Shown here in pieces: positions 19,366 to 50,208 of a stretch of 50,932 nt of DNA. Under the pieces are notes generated by a model. The model was given only the letters and a program-made list of their open reading frames with translations, searched no databases and was not told the DNA's origin. A program made the translations under genes and the position numbers. How positions within the stretch are numbered: position 1 is the first letter of the stretch; the number at the start of each line of letters is the position of its first letter. This stretch comes from Chiloscyllium plagiosum (taxonomy: Eukaryota): contig NC_057751.1 in assembly GCF_004010195.1 (NCBI RefSeq), forward strand, positions 16,803,233 through 16,854,164. The letters run 5' to 3'.

Positions 19366-20378
19366 GGATTGCAGGTTCGGGAAACTTGAGCGATGAGGCT
19401 AGGTTNNNNNNNNNNNNNNNNNNNNNNNNNNNNNNNNNNNNNNNNNNNNNNNNNNNNNNNNNNNNNNNNNNNNNNNNNNNNNNNNNNNNNNNNNNNNNNN
19501 NNNNNNNNNNNNNNNNNNNNNNNNNNNNNNNNNNNNNNNNNNNNNNNNNNNNNNNNNNNNNNNNNNNNNNNNNNNNNNNNNNNNNNNNNNNNNNNNNNNN
19601 NNNNNNNNNNNNNNNNNNNNNNNNNNNNNNNNNNNNNNNNNNNNNNNNNNNNNNNNNNNNNNNNNNNNNNNNNNNNNNNNNNNNNNNNNNNNNNNNNNNN
19701 NNNNNNNNNNNNNNNNNNNNNNNNNNNNNNNNNNNNNNNNNNNNNNNNNNNNNNNNNNNNNNNNNNNNNNNNNNNNNNNNNNNNNNNNNNNNNNNNNNNN
19801 NNNNNNNNNNNNNNNNNNNNNNNNNNNNNNNNNNNNNNNNNNNNNNNNNNNNNNNNNNNNNNNNNNNNNNNNNNNNNNNNNNNNNNNNNNNNNNNNNNNN
19901 NNNNNAAATTAATTAAAAGGGCAGAAACGGAATTGATGGATTGGTTGGAAAGTTATGCAGAGTGGGGTTGAGATCTAAAACAAAGGCAGGCTTATCGGGC
20001 TGAATATATTGCACCCCCCCCCCCCCCCCCTCACCACTGGTCAGATCTGTGTTGACAAATGTCGGACTAATTGCGTGTGTTTGATTGATTTTCGACATAA
20101 GAACATGGCAGTGAGCGTAGCGCCCTTTTTTTAGGGGAAATAAAGTGATTCCAACAAGCCTGAGGGAGTGATTGAAAGCACTGTCTGTCACTTGATAGCT
20201 GAGCTTGCATCCTGTCAGTTTGATAGATGGATCGAATAAAACTTTCACTGGTGACTGTTCAGCCTGTAGAAACGCAATCAGCGCGGAGATTTGTCAACTG
20301 CTCTGATCCTCGAGCATTTTAATGGACTTTGCGGTTTTCCCACTTCCCCCTTTAATGGGTTTTGCATCCCGTGCACAG

Positions 20379-23500: not shown

Positions 23501-26500
23501 AGCAAACTTGGCCTATAGTCAGCGTTCTTTGTGTTGTCTGCAGGAGTATAAAACCTACAAGGAGAATTTCCTGAAGAGGTTCCAGTTGACGAAGCTCCCA
23601 CCTTACCTCATCTTCTACATCAAGCGGTTCACAAAGAACAACTTCTTCATCGAAAAGAACCCCACCATCGTGAATTTCCCAATCACGTAAGCCCACTTAC
23701 CTTCGAAGGCTTGCTCCCTTCCCCTCCTTCAAGGTGCTGCCCATGGACCGGGTACAATTCCGTTTGGCCAAGAGAGGCCCACGCGCTTATTTTTAAACGC
23801 ATCGGTGAATAATCTCCATCATGGGCCATGCCCTCCCCCCCCCCCCCCCCCCCCCCCCCCATCCCCCCTCCACCGACAGCCACTGTCCTGGCGATCTGGG
23901 CAGGGACGCTGACTGAAACCTCAACCTCTCGCTGCGAGGGGCAGCGCGTGGCGAAAGCTTTTCATCCTGCACCCATCGGGTCGAGTGCAAGAACGTGCAG
24001 TTCTCACGGCGATCCTGCAGTGGAAATAATTGAGGTTCAGTGCTAGCCCGCGATGGATTCAAGATGAAAAGTCTCAGAAATTGTCAGCAGGACTGGTTTA
24101 GATTAGATTAGATTACTTACAGTGTGGAAACAGGCCCTTCGGCCCAACAAGTCCACACCGACCCACTGAAGCGCAATCCACCCATACCCTACATTTACCC
24201 CTTAACTAACACTACGGGCAATTTACCATGGCCAATTCACCTGACCCTGCACATCTTTGGACTGTGGGAGGAAACCGGAGCACCCGGACGAAACCCACGC
24301 AGACACTGGGAGAACGTGCAAACTACACAGTCAGTCGCCTGAGTCGGGAATTGAACCCGGGTCTCTGGCGCTGTGAGGCAGCAGTGCTAACCACTGTGCC
24401 ACCGTGCCGCCCACGAGAAGGCTGGAGCCAGTGACTGCTGCTCGCGTAGACGGACGATTGAATCTCAAGGAAAATTGTGCAGTGGGCTGCAGCTCCAACC
24501 TATGATACAGTGGCTTCCGCGCTTGGTGTGTGAGGCTCCCAGGAACGTGTCGATGTTCTGGGTTGAGGGGGGTGGGGGGAGGTGAGGAGATGGTCTGGGT
24601 TCAGTCCTGGCCTGCGTCCAGATTTTCATGGACCCGGCCAAGTGGGAAACTCCCAGCAGCAACCACTTCACCCAGTGAGCAACGGGAAGGTGGGACTGTC
24701 TGCCACGGGAGTGGTGTGAAGTGAATGGTGTCCATGTGTTGCAGGGGGCGTTTGACCTGCTTGTGAGGGAGAGCGGGGGGTAGTGGGCGATGCTGATGGA
24801 TTCGGCTGAAAGGTGCTCAAGTAAAGCCTAAAAACCAGCAGGGACTGCTTGGGCTGAGTGGTCTGTGTGCTGTGCCGTCTCGCCTGTACATAAGGCAAAA
24901 CATTCACGCCTCCGGTTTCTTTTAGGTGAGATCTCGTGATTACAAGCAAATCGACCTTTTAATTGAAATGTGTGTTCTAGGAATGTTGACCTGAGAGAGT
25001 ACCTGTCCGAGGAAGTTCAGGCCGCTCACAAACAGACCACCTACGACCTGATTGGAAATGTGGTGCACGACGGGAAACCGGGTGAGGGAGCCTATCGGGT
25101 CCACGTGCTGCATCACGTGAGTACGCAGTCGGGAACGCTCATCTTGCCGCCAAGCCTCCCCTTCTCCCGCTGTGCGGCGGCCGGTCCGAGAAATAATGAC
25201 GGCTGTGGGCTCGTGAAATGCGACACGAGGGTGCTGGGAGCGCTCAGCTAGCCTGGCCGCGTCCCGGCAGGGGGGAATTCGCATTCCGGGTCGACAGTTG
25301 CTTATATCGGATTTCCAGCAGCCACGGTATTTTTGCCACCCAAAAAAGAGTTTGAAATGTGTATCTGAAGAATTGTTCCACAGTCGCAGTGGCGAGCCGT
25401 CATTGTTCAGTTGCAGATTCTGAGGCTGGGGTCACGCGTCGGCCAGCCCAGACAGGGAGGAAACTGCCTCTTGGCAGACCCCATTCCCCCCCCTCCCCCA
25501 CACTGCACGATTGTGGGATTGATTTCTAGAGGGATAGAAATGAAGTTATGCTAAATTTGGAATGACTTTGGCGAAACCACACATATAAGATTACTGACTG
25601 TGGCTCTGGTCACCAATTTGAAAACTGGAGACGGTTTACAAATGATTCCCAAGGAGGATACCTGAACTGCCAAGTCATACTTGTCAGGAAAGTATGATCT
25701 GTTCTCTCTAGTGGTGGCTCAGTGGTTAGCACTGCTGCCTCACAGCACCAGGGACCTGGGTTCGAACCCAGCCTCAGGCGACTGTCTGTGTGGAGTTTGC
25801 ACATTCTCCGGATTGGCCATGCTAAATTACCCATAGTGTTCAGGAATGTGCAGGTTAGGGGGGATTGGCCATGCTAAATTACCCATAGTGCTTAGGGATG
25901 TGCAGGTTTGGGTGGATTTGTCATGCTAAATTACCCATAGTGCTCAGTAACGTGCAGGTTAGGGTGGATTGGCTGTGCTAAATTACCCATAGTGCTCAGG
26001 GATGTGCAGATTAGGGTGGATTGACCTTGCTAAATTACCTATAGTGTGCAGGTTAGAATGGATTGGCCATGTTAAATTACCCATAGTGCTCAGGGATGTG
26101 CAGGTTAGGGTGGATTAGCCGTGCTAAATTACCCATAGTGTTCAGGGATGTGCAGGTTAGGGTGGATTAGCCGTGCTAAATTACCTATAGTGTGCAGGTT
26201 AGAATGGATTGGCCATGTTAAATTACCCATAGTGCTCAGGGATGTGGAGGTTAGGGTGGATTGGCCATGTTAAGTTACCCATAGTGCTCAGTGATGTGCA
26301 GGTTAGAGTCTATTGGCCATGTTAAATTGCACATCGTATTCAGCGATGTGTAGGTTAGGTGCATTGTTCAGGGGTAATAGTGTAGGGGAATGGATCTCTT
26401 CGGAGGGTCGGTGTGGACCTTTTGGGCCGAAGGGCTTTTTTCCACACTGTGGGGGTTCTTTTATAAAAAGTTAGTCTTGTAAATTGCACTGTTTAGTAAT

Positions 26501-33440: not shown

Positions 33441-34134
33441 GTTCCCCCACTGCAGGTAACACGGGATACTATTGATACATAGAACTTTCAGGAGCAAAGA
33501 ACGGTTCAATCTCTTCTGTCAATGCCACCGTGGCTCTGATCTCGCCCTCAAATGCTCAATGGGCCAATCAAATTGAAGTGAAAACGAGATAAAGCCAGGC
33601 TTGAGGTTTCGAGGATGCTCGTTGGCAAGAGGAAGTGTGGGAACCAATCTGAGAAAAAGGCGTGGGAGTGACCTCAAGGCCAGGGACCAGTATTCCCTCC
33701 CGGAAACATCTACCAAGTGTATACTTGGGGGTGCAGCTTCAGGGTCAGAGCCATCAGCCACATAAAGACCCACAGAAGTCTTGAGCCGTGGCATGGAGTT
33801 TCCTGGATGGACAATTGTACTCGTTAACAAGTGATTGTCAATGAGGAGAAAACGGGTCATTTGATTATATAAACTGCTGGGAGCAGCTCTGAAGGGGTTC
33901 AACGCGTTCATAATCCTCCTGCTTAATGGGTATTAACAATAAGCAATGACAGCTCGCTGCTGTTCACTCAGAGGCTGTCTCTCGACTGTGGAAGGAGAGG
34001 GCATTCATTTTAGTATCTGGTCTCATCCAAGGTTAAGTGAAGGAAATGTCGACTCCCAGGCTGCGTAGCAAGGTATCACACAGAATAACGGAAAGCCACG
34101 TCAACAAACCACATCAATTTGCAAAGTGGTATGT

Positions 34135-34653
34135 TAGTAAAAAAAAAAGCGTTTATTAAGCAAGCAAATCAAGGTTTTAAAGCGCATTTTTAAGGTCAAC
34201 TTGTAATCAGCTCCAGAGGACAAAGGGAGGAGTAATGAGAGGTGTTGAATTCAGATTGACGTCGATCAGATCGAATCCTGTCACATCGATCAGATCGAAT
34301 CCTGTCACATCGATCAGATCGAATCCTGTCACCATGGCCTTTTTCTTCTGTTGTGAAAGCTGCATTATTTCCCCCCCCCCGGCTGCGTTGAATCAACAAA
34401 CTTGTGTAGGTCCTAACAGTGTTGTTGTCTTGGCAACATCTAGTAGCTAAGTTGGCGGAAATCATTGACAGTAGCGATTGGAAGAAGGAAGACCTAAACT
34501 GACAGTGCCTCGTCAGACCTCCAGCTCGAATTTGGAATCATTCTGAGACAATGAACTGCTTCTCTAAGCTGCGCCGATTGTCATGGAGGCAAACAGGGCT
34601 TCGGCTGAATGCTAAAACTCTCTCATTCTCCCTCCACTCTCATTCTCAAACAC
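34135..34653 (-). other. Probable non-coding terminal exon (3'UTR) of the SFTPB-like gene
   Basis: Acceptor ttgctgcag| at 34654 on -, AATAAA on - at 34152-34157. A donor GTAAGT lies 1 nt after the stop of the upstream exon. Confidence 0.55.
34262..34332. repeat. 24-bp tandem repeat, 3 copies
   Basis: Unit TCGATCAGATCGAATCCTGTCACA. Confidence 0.85.
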
Positions 34654-35200
34654 CTGCAGCAAACCGTAAGAGTTTGAAATATTTCGACTTGAAACATTGA
34701 CTGTTTTGCCCCTCTCTCTCCACAAATGCTCACAGACCTGCTGAGTCGCTCCCAGCATTCAGAGAGAGTGCGCGCTGATCTGGAATTAAATTTCTAAGCA
34801 ATGCAAGAGGATTTTTTTTTTCCCCAATATAAATTTGCGGGCTGGCCTTCAGTTCATGTCCTGCCTCTCTCACCGTTCGACAGTCTGAAAAAAAAAAAAT
34901 CACAAAGCCAAAATACTGAATTGTTCTCTTGTTCCTGAAGGTTGACATTCACTAACCATCGCTTTCTAAAGATTTCATCCTCCCTTTTCAACCTCAGTGC
35001 CTTTCACTAAATGGCAAGGCACAACTTTCAAAAAATAAAGCATAGATGAGAGTTGGTATTCAAAGTGGAACCATTAGTAGCTACGGCTGCTTCCCCATCA
35101 TCCCCTCCCCCCAGCCCCGACCCACTCATAACCCCAAATGGTGAGTACCACACTGTCTATAAATCTTTACCCCTGTACAGACGCTGATATCATACTTACT

Positions 35201-35263
35201 TTATACTGGTTGGCGGATTCTGTCGAAATGCGCGTCCACTTTCCTCGTGCAGATGTGCAGAGC
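35201..35263 (-). CDS. SFTPB: SFTPB-like last coding exon
   Basis: ALHICTRKVDAHFDRIRQPV*; cag| ... TAA a|gtaagt. Confidence 0.8.
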   Translation of the reverse strand, partial: ALHICTRKVDAHFDRIRQPV

Positions 35264-38200
35264 CTGTCCGTAAATACAGAAGGGTACCGTTTGAGGCTCA
35301 TTCCTGAGTGAACACAAGTCTACACGACTGACAGCCGGACCGCAAAAGCAGGCCCTTTCCCACTGTAACCACAAGAGTCCCCTGGCGGCAGTGCCCGGAC
35401 CTCTGGGCCAGGCGACGTGGGTTCGCTATCCTGACCAAGAGGACGCTCTGGACGTGCGCCGGGTATTTGATTGCAAGGGAACACAGGAGGTGGCCATTCG
35501 GGCCAGCCAGTGTGCCTGTACTATGTGAATGATTAGATCGCCCTCTCTCTGAGGTACACCACTCAACGAATGCTAACTTCGAGATACTCACCCCACACAG
35601 ATCGTAATCCTCGGGATACTCCGGAACAGTGGTCAGCAGAGGGACGTGGGTGTAGACAAATTCTTCGCACTGTAAGGAACCAATCAAAAATAAAGAAAAT
35701 GGGCTGATTACCTTCTCGTATAAAGAAGGGGGTTTCATTGGCGTGGTGGTCTTCCTGTCTGGATTGTTCACACAGTGGTGATCAAACAAAACTAGGGGAA
35801 AAAGCTCAAAGGAATCATGCAGCGCCAAAGAGGCCCTTTGGCCCATCAAGCCTGTAACTGGCCAAAGCTACTAACTCGACACTAGTCCCACTCCCCCACC
35901 CCCCCCCCCCGGTAGGCCCCACAGCTTCGAATGTTAGGACGTTCCGACTGCTCATCCAAATACTTTATGAAAAGGTTGTGAGGTGTCCTGCCTCATTTAA
36001 CCCTGCCAGGCAGTGCATTCTAGATCCTCACCACCTTTTGGGTGAAAATTACCTCAAATCCTCTTGCCTCCCACCCTCCCTTGTTACTGTTTCTCCAGCT
36101 TCTCTTCATCGTTAACCTGCTCCGTCCCGGGCACTATCCTGGTGAATCTTCTCTCCGCCCCAGCCTCCACTACAACTTCCTAGAGTGTGGGAAGCCAGCA
36201 CACACTGTGGCCGAACCAAAGACTTGAGGACCTCCAACGTAACTTGCCTGCTCTTCTAACCTACACCACGACTGACAAAGGTCCTGTACGCTGCCTGAAC
36301 CGCTCTTACCCGAAGATCCTTTGAAATTCAGTCTCCTGTTGATTTGAGCAATTCCTCGTTTGTTCTTGACAAAGTGCATCGCTCCTCTGCTTTGGGCTGC
36401 ACTTCAGTCCCACGCTCCTGATCTTCGGGCGCCCGGTACGGAGGAGGGAGGGCAGGTCTGAAGACCTCCTCGTGGGTCTGCTCCTGGGCCTGGCCAAACT
36501 GGCCATCAACAGGTCCAGGCGGCGGGCCGTGGAGGGTGTCGTTAGGGCCGACTGCCTGCCCCTCTTCCTTTAGGGCCCGGGTGTCCTTGCAGAAGGAGCA
36601 CGCGGTGTCGACCAACACCCTGGAGTTGTTCAGGGAGAGGTGGGCGCCACAGGGAGTGGAGTGCATCATGTCTCCCTCCAACTCCAGTTTGATTTAGTCC
36701 CTACCCTCCCCTGCACAGTTTTGATCACACAGCACTGCCCTTCGATGTGAAGGGCAGTGTTTGTCACTGGCCACTCGGGTGTTTTCATATCTTCCTGTTG
36801 GTGGAATTTGAATAAAGATTCGTGCACCTTGTGTCTCACACACACACCATGGGTGCTGGGGAAAAATTAAGCACTACCGCAGTTAGGCGGTAGTGTGGGG
36901 GGGGGGGGTTTAAAAAAAAATAAAAAGCTTCAACTCCTTGACTGGCCACTCGGGAAGAAAAAAAAATATAACCAGGAGATTGGAGTGCATTACTTCCCAC
37001 TCCAACTCTATTTTGATTTAGTCCCTGCCCTCCCCTTGAAAAGAAAATAAAACTAAGTGCATCGCCTCAGACTTACCAGTGTTCAATTCCATCTGCCACT
37101 GACCTGACCAGCCTGTCCACATCTTCCTGGTGTGACCCAGCACTGATCACTGCCTCCTACCCCTAAGTCAATTTTGGATCCAACTTGCCAAGTTACGCTG
37201 GATCTCAAAAGAGCTTTTGCCTTCCTTATCAGTCTCTCACACATGACTTTGTTAAAGGCTTACTTGGAATTCATGTAAACTATATCAACTGTACTCGCAC
37301 CATCCTGGGGTTTACCGTTGACCGGAAACTCAACTGGGACTCGCCACATAAACACATAGGGGTAACAAGAGCAGGTCAGAGGCTGGGAATCCTGCAGCGA
37401 GTCACTCCCCTCCTGACTCCGCCCCACAAAGCCTGTCCCCCACCATCGACAAGGCCCAAGTCAGGAGGGGGGTGAGGGAATACTACCCCCTTGCCCTGGA
37501 TGGGGGAGGAGGAGGGGTGGGGGCAGCTCTAACCACACTCGAGAACCATCCAGGGGCAAACTGTCCCCACAACCCCCCACGCCCCACCCCCCCCGACGCT
37601 CAGTAGCAGCAGTGTTCACCATCTACAAGACGCACTGCAGCAACTCCCCCAGGCTCCTCAGACAGCACTTTACAAAACCCACAGCCACTTCCATCTCGAA
37701 GGATAAAGGCAGCAGTGAAAACTACCCCCTGCAAGCTCCCCTCTGAGCCACTTGCCCTCCCTGACTTGGAAATATCACTGTTCCTTCATTGTCACTGGGT
37801 CTAAATAGAGCGTATGATGTTGGAGCACAAGGAGGTGGTTTGTCCCTTCAAGCTTGCTCTGCCAGTGAGATTGTGGCTGATCTGACCAACCCCCCAAACT
37901 CCACTCTTCTGCCCTTTTCCCCATTACACTTGACTCCCATTCCGGCTTCAAAACCTGCCTACCTCAGCCTCGGACCCACCTTCTGCGGTACAGACTTCCA
38001 CAGGCTCGCAGCTCAGCAGAGGGCAGAATTTGACACCCAGATTCTTCCCCACGAGGGGGGTGGCAACCTCTCACCATCTGCCCCCCCTGCCGACGTCCCT
38101 CCGAGGATCGTGCACCTTTCGATACGGTCGCCTCTCGTGCTTCGAAACGAGCGCAAGCCCCGAACTACCCGACCTCTCCCCGGGACCAGCCGAGTGAACC

Positions 38201-41200
38201 TTCTCTGGACTGCCTGTGGTGCCAATGTATCTTCCCAAAAGCTAGTCACATCCTGCAGTCGTGGTCTGACTCCTGCCTTGCATAGGCCATGCCCATTTTC
38301 CCCAGTTTTGTTCGAAATCAGGCCAACATTGCCTGTTACCTGCTGAACCGGGGTGTACAAATCATGGAGGAGGACTCCCGGGATCCTGTGCTACAGTTTT
38401 CTGCAGCCTCCTATTTTCAAGTAATACTTAGCGCACTTTATTCTTGCTGCCGAATCGTCACTTTCTCCCACGTAACGTTCTGATTAGATTAGATTAGATT
38501 AGATTAGATTACTTACAGTGTGGAAACAGGCCCTTCGGCCCAACAAGTCCACACCTACCCGCCGAAGCGCAACCCACCCATACCCCTACATTTACCCCTT
38601 ACCTAACACTACGGGCAATTTAGCATGGCCAATTAACCTGACCCTGCACATCTTTGGACTGTGGGAGGAAACCGGAGCACCCGGAGGAAACCCACGCAGA
38701 CACGGGGAGAACGTGCAAACTCCACACAGTCAATCGCCTGAGTCGGGAATTGAACCCGGGTCTCCGGCGCTGTGAGGCAGCAGTGCTAACCACTGTGCCA
38801 CCGTGCCGCCCACAAACTGCCGAGTTTTTGTCTGTTTGCCACCTCAGCCTTGAACCCACCTTCTGTGATACGGAATTTCACGGCCTCGCAGCTCAGCCTG
38901 TCGCCGCCTAGTGTCGGAATTGGGAACCTTACCGTGAGTCCAGAGTGGCTTTAAAGGTGGTTTACCACCACTTTCTCAAAGGCAGTTCAGAATTGGCAAT
39001 AAACGCTAGCGTGGCCAGCGCTGCACATGTCCCCTTCCATGATTTGGGTTTAAAAATAAGCCCGGCTTTTGAAACTGGAAGGCGTGTAACTGCAAATTGA
39101 CTTCCTGAATGTTTAACTGGTTTTAGAAAGTTCGCCGTCACCACAGTTTCACTTCCTTCTTTCAGTTCACTTTCATTCAGTTGTGACTGAAAAAGAAACG
39201 GTGGGGGGGGGGGGGGAGGGGGGGCTAGACAATGTGTGAGTCTCCGTTCACATCTGCTGCTGTGTCCAGCGTTGAGGGTGGCTGAGTGCACTTTGTCCCT
39301 TTTCGTGATTTGTAGGAGCGTCGCTCCGAAAGCTAGTGTGCTTCCAATTAAACCTGTTGGGCTGGTGTTGCGGGAGTTTTAACTTTGCTTGCCCCCTTTT
39401 CTGTACCGCTGATGCCATCGCACAACAGGAGGTTGATAGGATAAAGCATTTCATTGCGCCATCCACGTCCTATGCGGGGGTCAGAGTTCATCGGCAGCCA
39501 TGATTGATCAGTCCTCAAGAGTGAACCAACTCAACAGCCCTCTCCTCCACAGCTCTAACTCAGAAAGGGCGGGATTCCGCATGGCGCCCCAGAATGAGTC
39601 ACATTTCAACAAAGGCCACCTTTCTGTCATTTGCGAAATCCTGAGGCTGGTGATTCACCTTATACTCCTTTTCAGGGTTATCCAAAGTGGTTATCCACTT
39701 TGGGGGCAAGAACAGGAAGGCAGATTACTACCTAAATGGAGTCAAGTTGGGTAAAGGGGCAGTACAGAGAGATCTGGGTGTTCTTGTACACCAGTCAATG
39801 AAGGTAAGCATGCAGGTACAGCAGGTAGTGAAGAAAGCTAATGGCATGCTGGCCTTCATAACAAGAGGAATTGAGTATAGAAGCAAAGAGGCCCGTCTGC
39901 AGCTGTACAGGGCCCTGGTGAGACCGCACCTGGAGTATTATGTGCAGTTTTGGTCCCCAAATTTGAGGAAAGACATTCTGGCTATTGAGGGAGTGCAGCG
40001 TAGGTTCACGAGGTCAATGCCGTGAAAGGCGGGACTATCATATGTTGAAAGATTGGAGTGACTGGGCTTGTATACCCTTGAGTTTAGAAGCCTGAGAGGG
40101 GATCTGATTGAGACGTATAAGATTATTAAAGGATAGGACACACTGGAGGCAGGAAACATGTTTCTGCTGATGGGTGAGTGCCGAACCACAGAGTCATAGA
40201 GATGTACAGCACGGAAACAGACCCTTCGGCCCAACTCAATCTAGTCCCACCTGCCAGCACCCGGCCCATATCCCTCCAAACCCTTCCTATTCATATACCC
40301 ATCCAAATGCCTCTTAAATGTTGCAATTGTACCAGCCTCCACCACTTCCTCTGACAGCTCATTCCACACACGTACCACCCTCTGTGTGAACACAGTTTAA
40401 AATTAAGGGGGAGGCCATTTAGAATAGAATGGAGGAGAAACGTCTTCACCCAGAGAGTGGTAGCTGTGTGGAATGCTCTGCCCCAGAGGGCTGTGGAGGC
40501 CCAGTCTCTGGATTCATTTCAGAAAGAGTTGGATAGAGCTCTCAAGGAGAGTGGAGTCCAGGGTTACGGGGATAAGGCAGGAACAGGATACTGATTGTAA
40601 TGAATAGTGGTGCTGGCTCGAAGGGCCCACTCCTGCACCTATTGAACTCACCACAAAATTCGAGATGTCCGAAAACGGGTTGCAGGCTTCCCGCAGCACG
40701 AGGTCTGTTCTTGTGCCTTTGGTCTGAGCTACCTTGAACTGACGGGCGACCTCCTCACACATATCACAGGACACGATAGGCAGGGCTGTATTGTGAGGAA
40801 GTGGGAGAGATTCCGATTAAACAGTTGTGACGAGGTGAGCGACAGTAAATGGATGCTTTACACGCTTCAGCCTGGATCTGAGGTGGGGCATCATGCTGAG
40901 AAACGAGACAGTGCCAAGTAGGCTTCTGCTGCTGTGCATTCGGCATGAGGGAATTGTTAGACTCAGAGAGCTGTCCAGGACGGAAACCGACCCTTCGGCC
41001 CAACTCGTCCATGCCAACCCAGACGTCCTAACCTAATCTAGTCCCACTTGCCAGCGCTTGGCCCATATCCCTCTAAACCCTTGTCCCCATCCAGATGCCT
41101 TTAAAATGCTGTCATTGTACCAGCCTCCACCACATCCTCTGGCAGCTCATTCCATACACGCACCACCCTCTGCGTGAAAGAATTGCCACTCAGATCCCTT

Positions 41201-44200
41201 TATCAATCTTTCCCCTCTCACCTTAAAACTATGTCCTCCAGTTTTGGACTCCTGTACCCCGGGGAAAAAAAAGACCTTGTCTAGTTACCCTATCCATGCC
41301 CCCTCATGATTTTATAAACCTCTATCAGGTCACCCCTCAGCCTCCGACACTCCAGAGAAAACAGCCCCGGCCTGTTCAGCTCTCCCTGTAGCTCAATCCT
41401 GACAACGTCCTTGTAAATCTTTTCTTTCGAGTTTCATAACATCCTTCCGATAGGAAGGAGATCAGAATTGACGATTCCAAAAGTGGTCTCACCAATGCCC
41501 TGTACAGCCGCGACATGACACCCCAACTCCTGCACTCTGTGCGCTGACCAATAGGCATGTTAGATTAGATTAGATTAGATTACTTACAGTGTGGAAACAG
41601 GCCCTTCGGCCCAACAAGTNNNNNNNNNNNNNNNNNNNNNNNNNNNNNNNNNNNNNNNNNNNNNNNNNNNNNNNNNNNNNNNNNNNNNNNNNNNNNNNNN
41701 NNNNNNNNNNNNNNNNNGCATGGCCAATTCACCCTAACCTTCACATCCCTGAGCACTATGGGTAATTTAGCATGGCCAATTCGCCCTAACCTGCACATCT
41801 CTGAGCACTATGGGTAATTTAGCATGGCCAATTCACCTGACCTGCACATTTTTGGAGTGTGGGAGGAAACCGGAGCACCCGGAGGAAACCCCACGCAGAC
41901 ACGGGGAGAATGTGCAAACTCCACACAGACAGTCACCTGAGTCGGGAATTGAACCCGGGTCTCTGGCGCTGTGAGGCAGCAGTGCTAACCACTGTGCCAC
42001 CGTGCCGCCCACTAACCACCGTGCCGCCCACGCTTTCTTCACCACCCTGTCTACCTGGGACTCCACTTCCAAAGAACTATGCACGTGCACCCCCAGGTCT
42101 CTTTGTTCACCAACACTCCCCAGAGCCCTACCATGTTCAGTGGCTCCAATGACCATTCCTAAATCTGTCGCCAAAACCTGGTTTTAAAGCTGTTGTGCCA
42201 TTCAAAAACGTAATAAGAGTCAGCTCCAGTTGAGGCTAGGTAAAAACAAGGACTGCAGATGCTGGAAACCAGAGTCTAGATGAGAGTGGTGCTGGAAAAG
42301 CACAGCAGGTCAGGCAGCATCTGAGGAGCAGCAAAATCGACGTTTCGGGCAAAAGCCCTTCATCAGGAATACAGGCAGAGAGCCTGAAGGGTGGAGAGAT
42401 AAATGAGAGGAGGGTGGGGATGGGGAGAAAGTAGCATAGAGTACAATAGGTGAGTGGGGGAGGGGATGAAGGTGATAGGTCAGNNNNNNNNNNNNNGAAC
42501 TGGGGTGAGGTGGGGGAAGGGGAAATGAGGGAGCTGTTGAAGTCCACATTGATGCCCTGGGGTTGAAGTGTTCCGAGGCGGAAGATGAGGCGTTCTTCCT
42601 CCAGGCGTCTGGTGGTGAGGGAGCGGCAGTGAAGGAGGCCCAGGACCTCCATGTCCTCGGCAGAGTGGGAGGGGGGAGTTGAAATGTTGGGCCACGGGGC
42701 GGTGTGGTTGATTGGTGCGGGTGTCCCGGATATGTTCCCTAAAGATATGGAGGCATTCCTTCAGGCTCTCTGCCTGTATTCCTGACGAAGTGCTTTTGCC
42801 CGAAACGTCGATTTTTCCTGCTCCTCGGATGCTGCCTGAACTTCTGTGCTTTTCCAGCACCGCTCTCATCTAGACTCCAGTTGAGGCTGTCAGAGGTAGA
42901 ACTGGATATCCCCAACTCATCCCCCACCCACAGCTTTCCAAAGACTCTCAAACCTCTGAGAGAGGAAATTCCTCCTCAGTTGGCACCCCTTTTTATTCAG
43001 AGAGTGTGCCCACAGTCCCCATGAATGGAAGAACTCGGAGTAGGCCATTCAGCCCTTCGAGCCTGCCCTGACAACCATTAGGATCATGGCTACACTTTCC
43101 CATGGACTCAGCTCCAGTTCCCCGCGTTGGCACCATATCCCTCAATTCCTTTATTTTTCAAAAAGGTATCTACCTTAGCTTCACTGAAGTAGCGTCAACA
43201 GCTTTCCTGGGCAAGGAATTCCATAGATTAACAACCGTCTGAGGTGAAGACGTTCCTCCTCAGTTCAGTTTTAAACCTGCTTCCTCTAATCTTGAACATA
43301 CAGCGCAGAACATGCCCTTCGGCCCTCGATGCTGCGCCGACCTGTGAACTAATCGAAGCCCATCCTCCCGTCATCATCCATGTGCTTACCCAAGGACTGT
43401 TTCAATCTCCCTGATGTGGCCGGGTTAACTACATTAGCAGGCAGGGCAGTCCCCGCCCTTACCACTCTCTCAGTAAAGGAACCTGCCTCTGACCTCTGTC
43501 TTAAATCTGTCGCCCCTTAATTTGTAGCTAAGGCCCCTTGCACAAGCTGACGTCGTCATCCGAGGGAAAAGACTTTCACTGACTACCCTATCTAATCCTC
43601 TGATCATCTTATCTGTCTCTTGTCCTGGTCTTACCTACCTGTGGAAACATCCTATCTATTTCTATTGCTTTGGTTCCCTGTGAAGGGGGTAACAGCATTG
43701 AACCTGCCTAATACCTATCATTCTTTTAAACTCCAGGGAGTTTATACTTTAATCGTTCCGGGGTTTTTTTTTTAAAAAAGGAGTGTCTCCTACTCTAGAT
43801 GAAAAGAGATAGAAATTCCACTTGGACTAACATGGTCAATCATTTAGAGATATAGAGATGTACAGCACGGAAACAGACCCTTCGGTCCAACCCGTCCATG
43901 CTGACCCAGATATCCCAACCCAATCTAGTCCCACCTGCCAGCACCCGGCCCATATCCCTCCATACCCTTCCTATCCATATACCCATCCAAATGCTTCTTA
44001 AATGCTGCCATTGTACCAGCCTCCACCACTTCCTCTGGCAGCTCATTTCACACACGTACCACCCTCTGTGTGAAAACATTGCCCCTTAAGTCCCTTTTAT
44101 AGCTTTCCCCTCTCACCCTAAACCTATGCCCCTCTAGTTCTGGACTCCCCCAAGGGAAGAGACTTTACCTATTTATCCGATCCATGCTCCCTCATGATAG

Positions 44201-47200
44201 AACATAGAACAATACAGCACAGAACAGGCCCTTCGGCCCACGATGTTGTGCCGAACATTTGTCCTAGCTTAAGCACCTATCCATGTACCTATATTCCTCT
44301 GGTCATCTTATAAACCTCTATCAAGTCACCCCTCATCCTTCTCCGTTCCAATGAGAAAAGGCCTAGCACTCTCAACCTATCCTCGTACGACCTATTCTCC
44401 ATTCCAGGCAACATCCTGGTAAATCTCCTCTGCACCCTCTCCAAAGCTTCCACATCTTTCCTAAAGTGAGGTGACCAGAACTGCACACAGTAATGTTATA
44501 AGGTCACCCCTCAGCCTCTGACGCTCCAGGGAAAACAGCCCCCGGCCTATTCAGCCTCTCCCTGTAGCTCAAACCCTCCAACCCTGGCAACATCCTTGTA
44601 AATCTTTTCTGAACCCTTCTGAGTTTCACAACGTCCTGCCGATAGGAAGGAGACCAGAATTGCGCGCAATATTCCAACAGCGGCCTAACCAATACAGCCG
44701 CAACATGACCTCCCAACTCCTGGACTCGATACTTCTGTGATAACTGAGACAGGGCAGGATTGAGGTATCTCTAGAGATGAATATTTGACCTAGCTATTAC
44801 AGTTGTGTGATGTTGCAGAGTAGAGGAGTCTCAGAACGGAGAGAGTGGAATCACTTTCTGAGCTGTAATGCTGCTAGAGAGACTTGCTCAGCCACAGAAG
44901 GGGAATTGAAAATCTGATGTTTGACCCGCACGTCACCCCAGCCTCTGTGTTCAGAACAAAGCGGGGGTGGGGGGGGGTGAGTTTTAAAGGCAGTTTCGCT
45001 GGGATACGTACACGGTTCCTTCGAGTCCACGGTGGAACAAACGTGGAGAGCCTCACACACAGCACCGGGCTGCACTTCCCGAAACAGCAGATCGACAGCA
45101 GTATCCCCGAACCGTTCCATAAAACCGCGACACTTTGCCAGGTATTTGCCCGTCAGTCGGGAGCAGACCTGTTGGGGCAGCGTGGCGATGGCAGCCTGTT
45201 GGGGGGGGGGGCGTTGGCAGAGACGAGATTTTGAAAAGCAAACAGCAAAAATGGTCAAAACAGCGGAGACTATTCAGGGCAGCAGCGCATCCTATATTTC
45301 GGTTCCTGTTTTGACTTGCATCTGTAAGGGGGGAAAAAAATATAAGAGTAACCCGCCCACGCTCTGAAACCCGGTCGGTTTTCTTGAAATAGCAAAGGTG
45401 TTTGCCGCTGGGTCAGCACTAAGCAGTGCGAGTGCTATCCTCAGTGCACTGGGAATGAATTGAGCTCAGCTAGGAATCTAACGTCTGGCCCACAACACGT
45501 GGACCCTGCATTGTACCACAGGCAAAGTACAGACAGAACAGTGGGTATTCTCCAGGCTCCCCCTCGCCCGAGATCTTCAGGTTAAACCTCTAATGACAGA
45601 GGAAGAGAGGGATTGAGAGAGAGAGAGAGAGAGACACTGAGAGGGAAAAACCTTCCCAACTTGGTTCCCCTTCACCAACATTTCTCCCTACCGTTCAGAC
45701 ACAGAAATCCCTGCAGTGTGGAAACAGGCCCAACAAGTCCACACTTACTCTCTGAAGAGTATCCCACCCAAGCCCATTCCCCATCACTCTCCCTTTACTC
45801 CTGACTAATGCACCTAACCGACATATCAAGATGTGCAGGTTAGGGTGGATTGGCCGTGCTAAATTACCCATAGTGCCCAGTGATGTGCAGGTTAGGGTGG
45901 ATTGGCGGTGCTAAATTACCCATAGTGCTCAGGGATGTGCAGGTTAGGGTGGATTGGCCGTGCTAAATTACCCATAGTGTTAGGTGCTTTAGTCAGAGGG
46001 GGGGGTGGGTTGCTCTTCGGAGGGTCGGTGTTGACGTGGGCTGAAGGGCCTGTTTCCACACTGTAGGGAATCTAATCTAATCCCTGAACAATTTCACATG
46101 GCAGGTTCACCTAAACTACATGTCTTTGTGACTGTGGGAGGAAGCCGGAGCACCTGGAGGAAACCCACTCAGACATGGAGGGAGAATGTGCAAACTCCAC
46201 ACACAGACAGTCGCCCCGAGGCTGGAATCGAACCCGGGTCCCTGGCGCATGAGGCAGCACTGAGTCACCCTTCACCACCTTCCTAGGCATCTGCTTCGCG
46301 TATCCTGGAACTCAGCAGCAAAAGTAGTCACTCTGTCTACCGTGAATCGATCCTTCCTTCGATTAAAAGGCCAAAAGACGGTAAGTGATAGGAATGGGGT
46401 AGGCCATTCAGCTCTGTCTACCTGCTCCCTCGTTCAATAGGGTCATGGCCAATCCAACATTCCTCACGTCCACTTTCCTGTACTCCTTGCCCCCGTGATT
46501 CCCTGACTGGTCAAGAATCTATATATCTCAGTCTTAACTACCCACAAGGATTCTGCCCTCTCCCCCACCAACCAACCCACAGCCCTCTGTGAGTTCCAAA
46601 GCCTCACAACCTTCTGACAGAAGAAATTCATCCTCATCACGGACTTCGGTTGGCACTCACCCCTCCCCACCCCGTCTTATTCTGAGACTGTGTCCTCTGG
46701 TCCTAGACCGTCCCACATGGGGGAAACATCCTCTCAGCATTGACCCTGTCAATGAAATTGCCTCCCATTGTTCCAAACTCCAGTGAGTAGAGTCCCAACC
46801 TGTTTAGCCTTTGGCCATCAGACAATCCCTGGGAATCATCCTGGTGAACCTGCTCTGAGCTGTCTCAAACGAAACAATATCTTTCCTAAATTGAAAGGTG
46901 ACAGGAATTTCCAAAGCCCCGGGCCTTAGGAAGCTCAATGTGGGGTGGCCCATTGTTTTATACATTGGACACTATGAGGGCTCCCCCCCCCTCCCCCTGA
47001 GTTTTCTAGCTCTGCAGCTAAAGCCACTGGGATAGCATGGCAACCGGTGCATGCTGGGAGTGGCAGCTTAAAGAGAGATAGAGAGAAGATCGATCAGGCC
47101 CAGAAACACAGCAAGGCAACAAGAAACGAGGGGCTAATCATTGGCGGAGCGTGCTCCTCACAAAGCTGGAAAACCGCCACGGCAGATTGAGCGTCGACAT

Positions 47201-50200
47201 TTTGAAGTCCCGTCACAGTCGAGCCAGTAAAACCTGCTGCCATTTTGTTTGAGGTTTCAGGGCTGGGGTGGAAACCTGGCGGCCATGTTTCTGTTGCAGA
47301 CCATGTGACTCTCGAAATGCCTATCGACTGTCAGTTGTATTTTCCCAATCCAGCATAGTCGGCTTCCAAATGCGTGACTGCAGTTTCAGGGCCCTCGTTT
47401 CAAAAACGACTGTTTGACGCTCAAACTTAAAAGTGAACTCCGTCATGTTATGATCGCTATTGCCAGGCAAGTAACTCCCCACCATCGACAAGTCAGGAGG
47501 GGGTGAGGGAATACTCCCCACTTGCCGTGGATGGGGGCGAGCAGCTCCGACAACACTCGAGAAGCTTGACACCATCCAGGGACGAAGCAGCCCCCGCTCG
47601 ATTGTCCCCACACCCACAAACCCCCACTCCCTCCACCCCCCCCCCGACGCTCAGTAACAGCAGTGGGTACCATCTACAAGACGCACTGCAGCAACTCCCC
47701 CCAGGCTCCTCAGACAGCACCTTCCAAACCCCACGGCCACTTCCATCGGGAAGGACAAGGGGCAGCAGGTACATGGGAACACCACTCCCTGTAAGTTCCC
47801 CTCCGAGCCCCTCACCGTTCGCGACTCGGAAATATATCGGCCGTTCCTACAGTGTCGCTGGGTCAGAATCCCGGGACTCCCTCCCTGAGGGCGCTGTGTG
47901 AGGGGGGGGTCCCTACACCACATAGGACTGCAGCGGTTCAAGGAAGAAATTTGAGTTACTAAGGAGGGGCAATGAATATTGACCCAGCCAGTGACACCCA
48001 CGTATCAGTGAAGACAAGGGGGGGGGGGGGAATAGGTTAAAATGCAGATCGAGACACGAGCTGTCTATCCCCTTTCAGAATCAATGCATTTCAGAAGAAG
48101 AGTATAACCCACCTCCGTTTTCTCCTCAGGAAGTAGTCGTTGCAGCTTCTTCACAACGAGGACACAGGAGTCACATGTGTATCTGTCTTTGGGGAAGGGC
48201 ACCTGGTTCAACAGGGAGGCATAATGGGACAGTTGACCTAACTGTTCCGACCATGCACTGTAATTAGAGTCATAGAGACGTACAGCACGGAAACAGACCC
48301 TTCGCTCCAACCCGTCCATGCTGACCCAGATATCCCAACCCAATCTAGTCCCACCTGCCAGCACCCGGCCCATATCCCTCCAAACCCTTCCTATTCATAT
48401 ACCCGTCCAAATGCCTCTTAAATGTTACAATTGTACCAGCCTCCACCACTTCCTCTGGCAGCTCATTCCACACACACACCGTCTGCGTGAAAAAGTTGCC
48501 CCTCTTTTATATCTTTCCCCTCTCACCCTAAGCCTATGCTCCTCTAGTTCTGGACTCCCCCACCCCACAGAAAATATCTTGTCTATTCACCTTATCCACG
48601 CCCCTCATGATTTTTGTAAATCTCTATGGGTTTCCTCCGGGTGCTCCGGTTTCCTCCCACAGTCCTAAGATGTGCAGGTCAGGGTGAATTGGCCATACTG
48701 AAAAATTGCCCATCGTGTTAGGTGCATCATTCAGAGGGAAATGGGCCTGGGTGGGTTTCTCTTCGGAGGCTCGGTGTGGACTGGTTGGGCCGAAGGGCCT
48801 GTTTCCACACTGTAGGGAATCTAGTCTAATCAAATAAGGTCACCCCTCAGCCTCCGACGCTCCAGGGAAAACAGCCCCAGCCTCTTCAGCCTCTCCCTGT
48901 AGCTCAAACCCTCCAACCCTGGCAACATCCTTGTAAATCTTTTCTGAACCCTTCCATGTTTCACAACATCTTTCCGATAGGAAGGCGACCAGAATTGCAC
49001 GCAATATTCCAACAGTGGCTGAAGACTGTGAGCTGTGAAACACTAACTTTGTTATATCTACTGCTGTTTTACACTAGCGCCTTCCCACATTGGATCACGT
49101 GAGTGACCGACACTTCCTTGCAACCTGTCGCAGTTAGTGAAGTTAGTTATCTAAGAGTACAATAATATCTGGGGTGGTAAAGAAGGTCCACTTCCCTTTA
49201 TTGGTCAGAGTATTGAGTACAGGAGTTGGGAGGTCATGTTGCGGCTGTACAGGACATTGGTTAGGCCGCTGTTGGAATATTGCGTGCAGTTCTGGTCTCC
49301 TTCCTATCGGAAAGATGTTGTGAAACTTGAAAGGGTTCGGAAAAGATTTACAAGGCTGTCACCGAGATTAAAAGGGCGAGGCTAGACAGGCTGGGGCTGG
49401 TTTCCCTGGAGTGTCGGAGGCTGAGGGGTGACCTTATAAAATCATGAGGGGGGGCATGGATAGGGTAAACAGACAAGGTCATTTTCCTGGGGTAGGGGGG
49501 GAGTCCAAACTAGGGGAGGTGCTTGTGTGGAATGAGCTGCCAGAGGAAGTGGTGGAGGCTGGTAGAATTGCAACATTTAAAAGGCATCTGGATGGGTATG
49601 TGAATAGGAAGGGTTTGGGAGGGATATGGGCCGGGTGCTGGCAAATGGGACTCGATTAGGTTAAAGGATATCTGGACAGAAGGATTTGTCTCCGTGCTGT
49701 GATATAGAGATCACCTGTTGGACTGGCGTGGACAAAAATCTGAAGTCGCACAACCAGGTTTATTTAAAAATCACATACCTTCGGAGCACCGCTCCTTCAT
49801 TAGATGGAGCACGCCCACGCTATCCATCCCTAGTTAGGTGCCCGAAACTGGATTCGAAAGCTGCACTCAGACGTGGCTAATTAGCTCAGATCGAGACAAA
49901 AAAAACAGAGACCGTTTCCACCCCCCCCCGCCCCGTTACGCAGCCCCCAGGCAATTTTGTAAACCAGCGCCCCTGAAGAAGGGCTTATGCCCGAAACGTC
50001 GGTTCTCCTGTTCCCTGGATGCTGCCTGACCTGCTGCGCTTTTCCAGCAACACATTTTCACCCCTGCAATCAATCCTACCCTGATGCGTTTCCAGACTTC
50101 GTTGGACTTTGGTGAGAAATTGTCCACGCCCGTCTTTGCTTTGGCGTGGAGAGATCCTTCCTTCAGGGATTTGCACAGGCCGAGGGCAGCGCACAACGCA

Positions 50201-50208
50201 TCCGGTTC
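35201..50208 (-). CDS. SFTPB: Multi-saposin-B-domain protein, probable surfactant protein B (SFTPB) orthologue; last six coding exons, 5' exons beyond window
   Basis: complement(join(35201-35263,35592-35669,40652-40785,45012-45195,48113-48202,50080-50208)). Frame continuous. End of one saposin domain (LCAALGLC) plus two complete 6-Cys saposin B domains; no C-terminal SapA as in prosaposin; convergent with USP39 as human SFTPB is. Confidence 0.8.
35592..35669 (-). CDS. SFTPB: SFTPB-like exon
   Basis: CEEFVYTHVPLLTTVPEYPEDYDLCG; cag| ... |gtgagt; 78 nt. Confidence 0.85.
36340..36850 (+). mobile_element. Tx1/L1-clade LINE 3' end
   Basis: LHFSPTLLIFG...DLLVGLLLGLAKLAINRSRRRA...ELFRERWAP resembles the Tx1 ORF2 C-terminus; AATAAA at ~36811. 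Confidence 0.65.
37290..37800 (+). mobile_element. Degenerate non-LTR LINE 3' fragment (L2/Crack-like)
   Basis: ILGFTVDRKLNWDS...RAGQRLGILQRV...KAQVR..EY; same family at 47475-48000. Confidence 0.6.
37805..38360 (-). mobile_element. Old CR1-type LINE 3' fragment
   Basis: ...AVQRRFTRLVPG...RGDRIE... on -. Confidence 0.6.
38484..38813 (-). mobile_element. V-SINE (HE1-like), full length
   Basis: Head, core and long (TAATC)n tail. Confidence 0.88.
39680..40640 (+). mobile_element. CR1-type LINE 3' fragment with a nested opposite-strand CR1 tail (~40190-40390)
   Basis: VIHFGGKNRKADYYLNG...RDLGVLV...KKANGMLAFI...VRPHLEYYVQFWSP. Confidence 0.85.
40652..40785 (-). CDS. SFTPB: SFTPB-like exon
   Basis: (S)LPIVSCDMCEEVARQFKVAQTKGTRTDLVLREACNPFSDISNFV; cag| ... 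|gtgagt; 134 nt. Confidence 0.85.
40960..41555 (-). mobile_element. CR1-type LINE 3' fragment
   Basis: RSWGVMSRLYRALVRPLLE... and the family 3' tail; continues at ~42030-42135 beyond an inserted SINE. Confidence 0.8.
41560..42030 (-). mobile_element. V-SINE (contains gap) inserted in a CR1 fragment
   Basis: Head, core, 52-bp units, tail on -. Confidence 0.8.
42336..42370 (-). ncRNA. Minimal type I hammerhead ribozyme motif in Penelope pLTR
   Basis: Minus strand AUUC-CUGAUGA-A-GGGC[UUUU]GCCC-GAA-ACGU-C-GAU; GUC cleavage triplet. Confidence 0.72.
42778..42813 (+). ncRNA. Hammerhead motif in the inverted pLTR (one helix II mismatch)
   Basis: CUGACGA-A-GUGC[UUUU]GCCC-GAA-ACGU-C. Confidence 0.55.
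43850..44730 (-). mobile_element. CR1-type LINE 3' fragment with a nested second-subfamily CR1 (~44198-44490)
   Basis: VRPLLEYCAQFWSPSYRQDVV... and QFWSPHFRKDVEALERVQRRFTRMLPG... Confidence 0.85.
45012..45195 (-). CDS. SFTPB: SFTPB-like exon
   Basis: AAIATLPQQVCSRLTGKYLAKCRGFMERFGDTAVDLLFREVQPGAVCEALHVCSTVDSKEP; cag| ... |gtacgt; 184 nt. Confidence 0.88.
45705..46262. mobile_element. Nested V-SINEs: older minus-strand copy split by a 5'-truncated plus-strand copy (~45828-46081)
   Basis: Minus tail at 45705-45825 and head/core at 46082-46262 flank plus-strand 52-bp units and tail. Confidence 0.75.
47475..48000 (+). mobile_element. Degenerate non-LTR LINE 3' fragment (same family as 37290-37800)
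   Basis: Shared CCACCATCGACAAG..AGTCAGGAG..GGAATACTCCCC and CACTGCAGCAACTCCCCCAGGCTCCTCAGACAGCAC blocks. Confidence 0.6.
48113..48202 (-). CDS. SFTPB: SFTPB-like exon
   Basis: VPFPKDRYTCDSCVLVVKKLQRLLPEEKTE; cag| ... |gtgggt; 90 nt. Confidence 0.88.
48266..49020 (-). mobile_element. CR1-type LINE 3' fragment split by a truncated plus-strand V-SINE (~48626-48830)
   Basis: EYCVQFWSPSYRKDVV...LGLFSLERRRLRGDLI plus 3' tail. Confidence 0.85.
49190..49710 (+). mobile_element. CR1-type LINE 3' fragment
   Basis: Similar to 16100-16720 with internal deletions. Confidence 0.8.
49970..50004 (+). ncRNA. Minimal hammerhead motif in a Penelope pLTR fragment (49970-50062)
   Basis: CC-CUGAAGA-A-GGGC[UUAU]GCCC-GAA-ACGU-C-GG. 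Confidence 0.65.
50080..50208 (-). CDS. SFTPB: SFTPB-like exon
   Basis: EPDALCAALGLCKSLKEGSLHAKAKTGVDNFSPKSNEVWKRIR; tag| ... |gtagga; 129 nt. Confidence 0.82.

What the first reader, a model, noticed from the sequence alone, without database searches (positions are those of the whole stretch)
34135..50208. Probable pulmonary surfactant protein B orthologue in an apparently lungless cartilaginous fish
Seen: six in-frame minus-strand exons encode the end of one saposin B domain and two complete ones. The 20-aa last coding exon is followed directly by a splice donor, implying a non-coding terminal exon. Established (from memory): human SFTPB has three SapB domains, no C-terminal SapA, exons DSNGICMHLGLCKS / ..FPIPLPYCWLC..PK (30 codons) / GALAVAV..(184 nt) / ..C..C.. 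/ CKQFVEQH.. / ALGVC..(20 aa), an untranslated last exon, and lies tail-to-tail with USP39. Inference: this is the SFTPB orthologue, and the repeats suggest a shark. SP-B would then predate lungs and swim bladders and have an ancestral non-respiratory role. I cannot check whether it is already annotated.
Basis: partly seen in the sequence, partly recalled or inferred. Interest (0 to 1): 0.78.

Follow-up and report, generated by a model that had tools for sequence, protein, structure and literature searches.

The report
Shark surfactant-B gene, tail domain lost
This is a spliced, expressed shark gene that likely shares its ancestry with the lung surfactant protein B gene; sharks having such a gene is already published, so it is mostly ordinary, but this copy has lost a tail domain that other fishes keep and likely handles lipids or microbes instead of lining a lung.

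Summary
Six minus-strand exons splice in frame and equal residues 182-406 of XP_043537068.1 ('prosaposin-like', Chiloscyllium plagiosum). RNA reads confirm the last junctions, a non-coding last exon (34884-~34131) and poly(A). The protein falls in the three-SapB clade with coelacanth SFTPB, apart from PSAP at 100/100 (no mammalian SFTPB in the tree). USP39-like and C2orf68 genes lie beside it, as in Xenopus. It is not new: bioRxiv 2024.07.14.603411 reports bamboo-shark sftpb with a tree and spleen/immune expression, relatives are already named SP-B, and this scan found the gene before in another genome (e1-9879840). Two corrections. (1) 'No C-terminal SapA' is not an SFTPB hallmark: 14 of 14 non-carpet-shark three-SapB proteins keep it. 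This copy lost it through a net 47-nt frameshifting deletion, and a decayed remnant is still readable (7 of 98,280 null windows score as high). The likeness to the human gene end is therefore likely convergent. (2) It is a co-orthologue: the 3' exons of a tandem copy with intact SapA, and a truncated paralogue, exist. The middle domain lacks surfactant traits (6 Cys, GRAVY 0.10, net +1).

The parts
50080..50208 (-). Coding exon: end of SapB domain 1 and linker (129 nt, phase 0-0)
   Evidence: 100% to P0001 182-224
48113..48202 (-). Coding exon: first part of SapB domain 2 (90 nt, phase 0-0)
   Evidence: Pfam SapB_1 E=4.9e-4, below cut-off
45012..45195 (-). Coding exon: rest of SapB domain 2 (184 nt, phase 0-1)
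   Evidence: Pfam SapB_2 E=1.4e-8
40652..40785 (-). Coding exon: first part of SapB domain 3 (134 nt, phase 1-0)
   Evidence: its 3' end matches the loose end of 80 reads at 35670
35592..35669 (-). Coding exon: middle of SapB domain 3 (78 nt)
   Evidence: joint to next exon in 69 reads
35200..35263 (-). Last coding exon (64 nt): end of SapB domain 3, 20 codons, stop, 1 nt, donor; 47 nt shorter than the 111-nt equivalent exon of the tandem copy
35200..35223 (-). Out-of-frame remnant: last 8 codons of the lost C-terminal SapA exon, in phase with the donor
   Evidence: 408 of 98,280 null windows score as high on these 8 columns
34849..34884 (-). Start of non-coding last exon: decayed last 11 codons of the C-terminal SapA (one cysteine codon position now a stop), then a stop at the ancestral position
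   Evidence: 254 of 98,280 on 11 columns; with the 8 codons before the junction 7 of 98,280; the other two frames score -14 and -18
34131..34884 (-). Non-coding terminal exon (3' UTR, about 750 nt), AATAAA at 34157, poly(A) at about 34130-34140
24967..25248 (+). Neighbour: exon of a ubiquitin-specific protease gene, tail-to-tail with the finding (named USP39 from recall of the sequence)
   Evidence: Pfam UCH E=3.3e-5
5812..6946 (+). Neighbour: exons of S-adenosylmethionine synthetase (MAT2A-like; paralogue name recalled)
   Evidence: Pfam S-AdoMet_synt_M E=4e-15 and _C E=1.7e-34

Best explanation
The locus is a spliced, polyadenylated shark gene encoding a saposin precursor, likely a co-orthologue of SFTPB, whose three soluble-type saposin domains would be cut apart and likely bind lipids or permeabilise microbial membranes in acidic compartments or secretions of immune and epithelial cells, not act as lung surfactant. 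Shown: exons, last junctions, poly(A), domain content of the six exons, placement in the three-SapB clade, neighbours, and loss of the C-terminal SapA with a readable remnant. Inferred: that the signal-peptide, N-terminal SapA and one SapB1 exon found on other scaffolds belong to this gene; proteolytic release of the domains (by analogy with PSAP and proSP-B); the function. History (inferred): the ancestral jawed-vertebrate gene was SapA-B-B-B-SapA. It was duplicated in galeomorph sharks. In the carpet-shark line one copy took a net 47-nt deletion in the penultimate exon, which shifted the frame, put a stop 1 nt before the old donor (too close to the last junction to trigger nonsense-mediated decay by the usual 50-nt rule, recalled), and turned the last exon into UTR.
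For: Tree of 31 proteins: three-SapB group (17) against PSAP (14) split at 100/100. The window protein nests with Hemiscyllium and Rhincodon inside a chondrichthyan clade that roughly follows the species tree, with Latimeria 'SP-B' and Polyodon on the same side. The split holds on 343 shared columns without the extra PSAP domain or the SapA tail. Reciprocal profile test: the solved SP-B N-terminal domain scores 69.8 bits against the shark three-SapB profile and 48.7 against the shark PSAP profile; saposin A scores 66.6 and 115.7 (best chain each). A separate PSAP-like gene lies on C38. C2orf68 lies 70-78 kb away and a Frag1/TMEM150-family match about 229 kb away on the same contig; Xenopus order is tmem150a, c2orf68, usp39, sftpb (PMC3526394, figure legend). 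Middle domain: 6 Cys, GRAVY 0.10, net +1, against an extra Cys48, GRAVY over 1 and +7 for mature SP-B (PMC12027065, passages); its best solved match is saposin C, E=2.6e-10. Published shark sftpb is high in spleen and in immune cells. The mammalian N-terminal propeptide is bactericidal at acid pH (PMC7279303, passages).
Against: No mammalian or other tetrapod SFTPB, PSAPL1 or NK-lysin/granulysin sequence was in the tree; orthology to mammals rests on the coelacanth record's name, the profile test on one domain, synteny and the published tree (legend only seen). The margin of SP-B over saposin A in the shark profile is small (69.8 against 66.6 bits), and the ESM Atlas returned only prosaposin-type clusters. 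One search warns that long branches meet (lamprey row with the three-SapB side). The 5' exons are not physically linked to the window (C99481, C61267, C24). None of 16 paired-box matches is on C42, so the pax8 side of the Xenopus synteny is not seen. The published expression may come from another copy or from both. No functional data exist for this copy in what I read.
Confidence: 0.8

Rival explanations
1. It is a shark-specific three-domain derivative of prosaposin (a PSAP paralogue that lost one saposin on its own), not orthologous to mammalian SFTPB.
For: NCBI names the record and most shark relatives 'prosaposin-like'; the middle domain's best solved match is saposin C; Atlas neighbours are prosaposin clusters.
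Against: It groups with Latimeria SP-B and Polyodon at 100/100 apart from all 14 PSAP rows. It sits beside USP39-like and C2orf68 genes as sftpb does in Xenopus. The SP-B N-domain prefers this profile to the PSAP profile by 21 bits. PSAP is elsewhere in the genome.
Confidence: 0.06
2. It is an SFTPB co-orthologue that already works as a surface-active agent on a mucosal or gill/gut surface, a proto-surfactant.
For: Shark sftpb is expressed in gill; loss of the C-terminal region, which in PSAP binds sortilin for lysosomal delivery (PMC12345702, passages), could favour secretion.
Against: The middle domain is not hydrophobic, is barely cationic and lacks the seventh cysteine. sftpb and abca3 co-expression is low in all shark cell types.
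Confidence: 0.08
3. It is a decaying duplicate: transcribed but under relaxed selection after the frameshift, with the SapA-bearing tandem copy doing the ancestral job.
For: Long branch to the carpet-shark clade (0.45), frameshifted tail, SapA-bearing exons of a second copy nearby.
Against: Open frame with all 18 SapB cysteines kept in Hemiscyllium and Rhincodon and all 12 of the two complete window domains; 89% identity to Hemiscyllium over 242 columns with short end branches; the same new C-terminus in 3 of 3 carpet sharks; abundant spliced reads.
Confidence: 0.06

Closest known systems
Bamboo shark sftpb (Chiloscyllium plagiosum; bioRxiv 10.1101/2024.07.14.603411; outline, 12 of 13 sftpb passages and methods section 20 read, figures and supplements not seen)
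   Same: Same species as the named record that matches these exons; SFTPB lineage by a published tree; broad, spleen-high, immune-cell expression; antibacterial or immunoregulatory role proposed there.
   Different: The passages seen do not mention several copies, the domain layout or the loss of the C-terminal SapA; which copy they measured is not stated in what I saw.
XP_043537068.1 'prosaposin-like' (P0001); XP_060712718.1 Hemiscyllium 'SP-B-like' (P0002); Rhincodon 'SP-B' (P0003)
   Same: P0001 residues 182-406 are these six exons; P0002 and P0003 share the three SapB domains and the same frameshifted end.
   Different: P0001 seems mis-modelled at the 5' end: its first 156 residues are one non-homologous open frame and it lacks half of SapB1, because those exons lie on other scaffolds.
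Coelacanth SP-B (P0154), paddlefish (P0232), Heterodontus, Heptranchias and ray three-SapB proteins
   Same: Three SapB domains, N-terminal SapA, soluble-type middle domain (GRAVY 0.18-0.33 in the five measured).
   Different: They keep a second, C-terminal SapA; this copy has lost it and has evolved faster.
Mammalian SFTPB / proSP-B
   Same: Three saposin domains; no C-terminal SapA and an untranslated last exon (both recalled, not tested here); domain 1 is the best solved match to shark domain 1.
   Different: Mature SP-B has GRAVY over 1, charge +7 and Cys48; the shark middle domain has 0.10, +1 and six cysteines. The shared lack of SapA is likely convergent.
Prosaposin (PSAP)
   Same: Same fold family, N-terminal SapA; shark domain 2 resembles saposin C.
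   Different: Four SapB domains and a C-terminal SapA; separate clade and separate locus (C38).

Membership tests
SFTPB gene lineage | Three SapB domains after a signal peptide and N-terminal SapA | tested here: met
   Two full domains and the end of a third in the window. First half of domain 1 at window-equivalent 54127-54053; second half on C61267/C24 (88% to Hemiscyllium); signal and SapA exons on C99481 (86%, 76%). Full-length P0002 and P0003 have three. Linkage of the off-scaffold exons is inferred.
SFTPB gene lineage | Groups with bony-vertebrate SFTPB and apart from PSAP in a tree | tested here: met
   100/100 with Latimeria SP-B and Polyodon against 14 PSAP rows
SFTPB gene lineage | Groups with mammalian SFTPB itself | tested here: inconclusive
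   No full mammalian SFTPB was retrieved; only a one-domain reciprocal profile test (69.8 against 48.7 bits)
SFTPB gene lineage | Synteny with usp39, c2orf68, tmem150a | tested here: met
   against PMC3526394. USP39 and TMEM150A identities rest on Pfam family plus recall; no paired-box match on C42.
SFTPB gene lineage | Exon lengths and phases equal to human SFTPB | not tested
   Absent here and in 2 other carpet sharks, but present in 14 of 14 other three-SapB proteins including coelacanth SP-B, so it does not define the family
Mature lung surfactant SP-B (functional class) | Very hydrophobic (GRAVY over 1), cationic (+7) middle domain with a seventh, dimer-forming cysteine | tested here: not met
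   GRAVY 0.10, net +1, six cysteines (reference values from PMC12027065)
Mature lung surfactant SP-B (functional class) | Surface activity and lamellar-body packaging | not testable with these tools
   Needs biochemistry; low sftpb/abca3 co-expression in shark is reported
Prosaposin (PSAP) | Four SapB domains, C-terminal SapA, PSAP clade | tested here: not met
   a PSAP-like gene lies on C38
NK-lysin / granulysin | Single SapB domain precursor | tested here: not met
   At least three domains are spliced together; NK-lysin scores 31.5 bits against 69.8 for SP-B

The most novel reading that the evidence does not exclude
Carpet sharks and mammals independently cut the C-terminal SapA off an SFTPB precursor in the same way: a premature stop in the penultimate exon that leaves the old last exon as UTR. 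Because that region carries the sortilin-binding lysosomal address in prosaposin, the loss would be a repeated step that re-routes the precursor from lysosome to secretion. A shark with a SapA-less copy beside a SapA-bearing copy would then be a natural paired test of how SP-B trafficking evolved before surfactant chemistry did. The structural half (derived loss with a readable remnant) is about 0.9 likely; the re-routing half is untested.
Probability: 0.3. Interest if true: 0.5.

Novelty: already known. Interest (0 to 1): 0.22.

Why it matters
The headline, SP-B ancestry predating lungs with an immune or lipid-handling role, is in print for this species group and needs no follow-up. What this locus adds is small but clean. 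It shows that the ancestral SFTPB had a C-terminal SapA, that its absence cannot be used to recognise SFTPB, and how a non-coding last exon arises from a coding one. It also warns that expression reported for 'shark sftpb' may mix copies, and that the RefSeq model's 5' end is likely wrong.

Tried and rejected
Run search: no RNA holder listed; not used as evidence, only the laid reads are. Only 34000-35800 could be laid, so the three upstream junctions in the window are untested by reads. ESM Atlas for P0002 gave only prosaposin-type clusters at 0.91-0.92 and does not separate SFTPB from PSAP. The representatives search was dominated by multi-saposin proteins, and the profile search listed 120 of 240 hits, mostly PSAP and no tetrapod SFTPB, so no mammalian SFTPB, PSAPL1 or NK-lysin entered the tree. 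The tree used 31 rows chosen by hand: all 17 three-SapB proteins except fragment P0119 and isoform P0156, and 14 PSAP-type rows picked for spread. A fourth SapB domain upstream: none found in 200 kb of C42 beyond the window (31,668 N) or on C99481; gaps limit this. The rest of the tandem copy (its SapB1 and SapB2 exons and first SapB3 exon) was not found. pax8 next to the gene: not on C42. Human exon structure and the human lack of SapA could not be confirmed from papers; they stay recalled. No fold or complex was run, since neither would change the verdict.

Full report
Observation. The six exons exist on the minus strand at 50208-50080, 48202-48113, 45195-45012, 40785-40652, 35669-35592 and 35263-35200, each with AG and GT ends and compatible phases. 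Spliced, they give 225 codons without an internal stop. The stop lies one base before a GTAAGT donor. Reads confirm the 3' structure. In run X20, 102 reads from 28 starts join 35200 to 34884, 69 reads from 40 starts join the two last coding exons, 80 reads continue from 35670 into sequence matching the end of the 134-nt exon, and 370 reads have poly(A) ends at 34130-34140. Contigs of X1 and X16 carry both joints and X6 one (4 of 24 listed runs were laid, on 34000-35800 only).

Identity and prior annotation. The 184-nt exon finds two proteins: P0001 at 100%, named 'prosaposin-like [Chiloscyllium plagiosum]' (XP_043537068.1), and P0002 at 92%, 'pulmonary surfactant-associated protein B-like [Hemiscyllium ocellatum]'. 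The whale-shark relative is named SP-B too. The six exons equal P0001 residues 182-406. P0001's first 156 residues are one non-homologous open frame upstream, and it lacks half of SapB1. The likely true 5' exons are scattered by a gappy assembly: signal peptide at C99481:10011-9970, SapA at C99481:3950-3801, first half of SapB1 just beyond the window (window-equivalent 54127-54053), second half on C61267 and again on C24 between gaps. They are 76-88% identical to the Hemiscyllium protein, and the two scored against a panel of ten proteins score best with it. No physical link was shown.

Orthology. In a 31-row tree the 17 three-SapB proteins and 14 PSAP-type proteins are split at 100/100. The window protein sits with Hemiscyllium and Rhincodon (100/100), inside a galeomorph group with long branches, then Heterodontus, Heptranchias and rays; Latimeria SP-B and Polyodon are on the same side. 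The split holds on 343 columns shared by both groups, though that run warns of long branches meeting. No tetrapod SFTPB, PSAPL1 or NK-lysin was retrieved, so the link to mammals is indirect. The solved SP-B N-terminal domain scores 69.8 bits on a shark three-SapB profile and 48.7 on a shark PSAP profile; saposin A scores 66.6 and 115.7. A PSAP-like gene lies on C38. Neighbours are a UCH-family gene tail-to-tail and an AdoMet synthetase in the window (the names USP39 and MAT2A are recalled), C2orf68 70-78 kb away and a Frag1/TMEM150-family match about 229 kb away. This agrees with the Xenopus order tmem150a, c2orf68, usp39, sftpb, pax8 (PMC3526394, figure legend), except that none of 16 paired-box matches is on C42.

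Prior art. bioRxiv 10.1101/2024.07.14.603411 (outline, 12 of 13 sftpb passages and section 20 read; figures and supplements not seen) states that sftpb dates to the jawed-vertebrate genome duplications and gives a Bayesian tree. It reports bamboo-shark sftpb in many organs, high in spleen, in immune cells, confirmed in situ in spleen, liver and gill, with little abca3 co-expression, and proposes an antibacterial or immunoregulatory role.

Lack of a C-terminal SapA is not an SFTPB mark. 14 of 14 three-SapB proteins from other sharks, rays, coelacanth and paddlefish, and 6 of 6 PSAP proteins tested, end in SapA; 3 of 3 carpet-shark proteins do not (Pfam agrees for the four checked). The state changes once on the tree. 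The lesion is visible. The last coding exon is 64 nt against 111 nt for the equivalent exon of a second copy, and the two align with an internal gap (2 of 500 shuffles score as high). Read in the frame that ends at the donor, the last 8 codons plus the first 11 codons of the non-coding exon score 15.2 against the 20 reference SapA ends, where the window's own six-frame windows give -22.0 +/- 7.6 and 7 of 98,280 reach it. The other two frames of that exon score -14 and -18. Codon 12 is a stop, where most reference proteins end (stop frequency 0.038 per codon). The non-coding exon is thus the old coding exon, silenced by a net 47-nt frameshifting deletion. Since coelacanth keeps SapA, the mammalian lack of it (recalled, not tested) would be a separate loss.

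Copy number. On C99481, upstream of the signal-peptide exon and on the same strand, lie three 3' exons of a second copy (28636-28559, 25206-25096, and one starting at 19599) with an intact SapA (Pfam SapA E=6.4e-8). On C27 a further fragment has signal-like, SapA and SapB1 exons and then two stops directly after domain 1, with no later exons found in the next 100 kb. It may be a single-saposin gene, a pseudogene, or the misplaced 5' half of the second copy, in which case that copy's intact tail might not be translated. Carcharodon has two such proteins. The window's gene is therefore best called a co-orthologue.

How it likely works. The middle domain has six cysteines, GRAVY 0.10 and net charge +1, against an extra Cys48, GRAVY over 1 and +7 in mature SP-B (PMC12027065, passages), and it matches saposin C best among solved structures (E=2.6e-10). 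Domains 1 (measured in Hemiscyllium) and 3 are acidic. The product would enter the secretory path, be cut into soluble saposins as PSAP and proSP-B are, and bind lipids or permeabilise membranes; the mammalian N-terminal propeptide is bactericidal at acid pH (PMC7279303, passages). These steps are inferred. In PSAP the C-terminus binds sortilin for lysosomal delivery (PMC12345702, passages), so the SapA-less copy may be secreted more; this is untested.

Verdict. Real, expressed, SFTPB lineage (about 0.93), already annotated and published. The derived loss of SapA with its remnant and the extra copies were not found in seven library searches, but the library is incomplete and the preprint's supplements could bear on copy number. 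Interest 0.22; novelty: already known, with a small unreported variant.

Noticed in passing
G000:C99481:28636-19564 (L034, L035), minus strand: Three 3' exons of a second SFTPB-like copy with an intact C-terminal SapA, about 9.5 kb upstream of the signal-peptide exon assigned to the window's gene; its other exons were not found.
   Followed up: partly
G000:C27:51293710-51323200 (L037-L039), plus strand: SFTPB-like paralogue with signal-like, SapA and SapB1 exons, ending in two tandem stops right after the first saposin domain; a possible single-saposin (NK-lysin-like layout) gene, pseudogene or misplaced 5' half.
   Followed up: partly
G000:C61267:197-325 (L023) and G000:C24:25513981-25514109 (L024): The same SapB1 exon twice, with identical exon sequence and about 97% identical flanks; on C24 it sits between gaps and is likely a misplaced contig.
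   Followed up: partly
window-equivalent 58278-57811 (L003), minus strand: The first 156 residues of XP_043537068.1 come from this non-homologous open frame; the public model's 5' end is likely an artefact of assembly gaps.
   Followed up: yes
window 15933-15679, minus strand: 85-codon open frame between the AdoMet synthetase and the UCH-family gene; no Pfam family over cut-off and no usable Atlas hit. Unidentified.
   Followed up: partly
G000:C42:16943438 onward (L011:9274-9996), plus strand: Pur-family gene (Pfam PurA E=1.2e-72) about 90 kb beyond the window; which paralogue was not tested.
   Followed up: partly
window about 29270-31640: Long near-perfect tandem array of a roughly 35-nt unit between the UCH-family gene and the finding (seen; not measured).
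   Followed up: no
window 34262-34332: Short tandem repeat in the 3' UTR; reads and contigs go back 24 or 48 bases here, so the transcript likely carries more copies than the assembly.
   Followed up: no
window 34812: 100 reads with poly(T)-containing loose ends beside a genomic A-run early in the 3' UTR; internal priming or a second poly(A) site.
   Followed up: no
proteins P0026, P0160, P0003: The middle saposin domain is cationic (net +6, pI 9.2) in great white and whale shark proteins but +1 here and -7 in sawfish, hinting at lineage-specific antimicrobial tuning.
   Followed up: no
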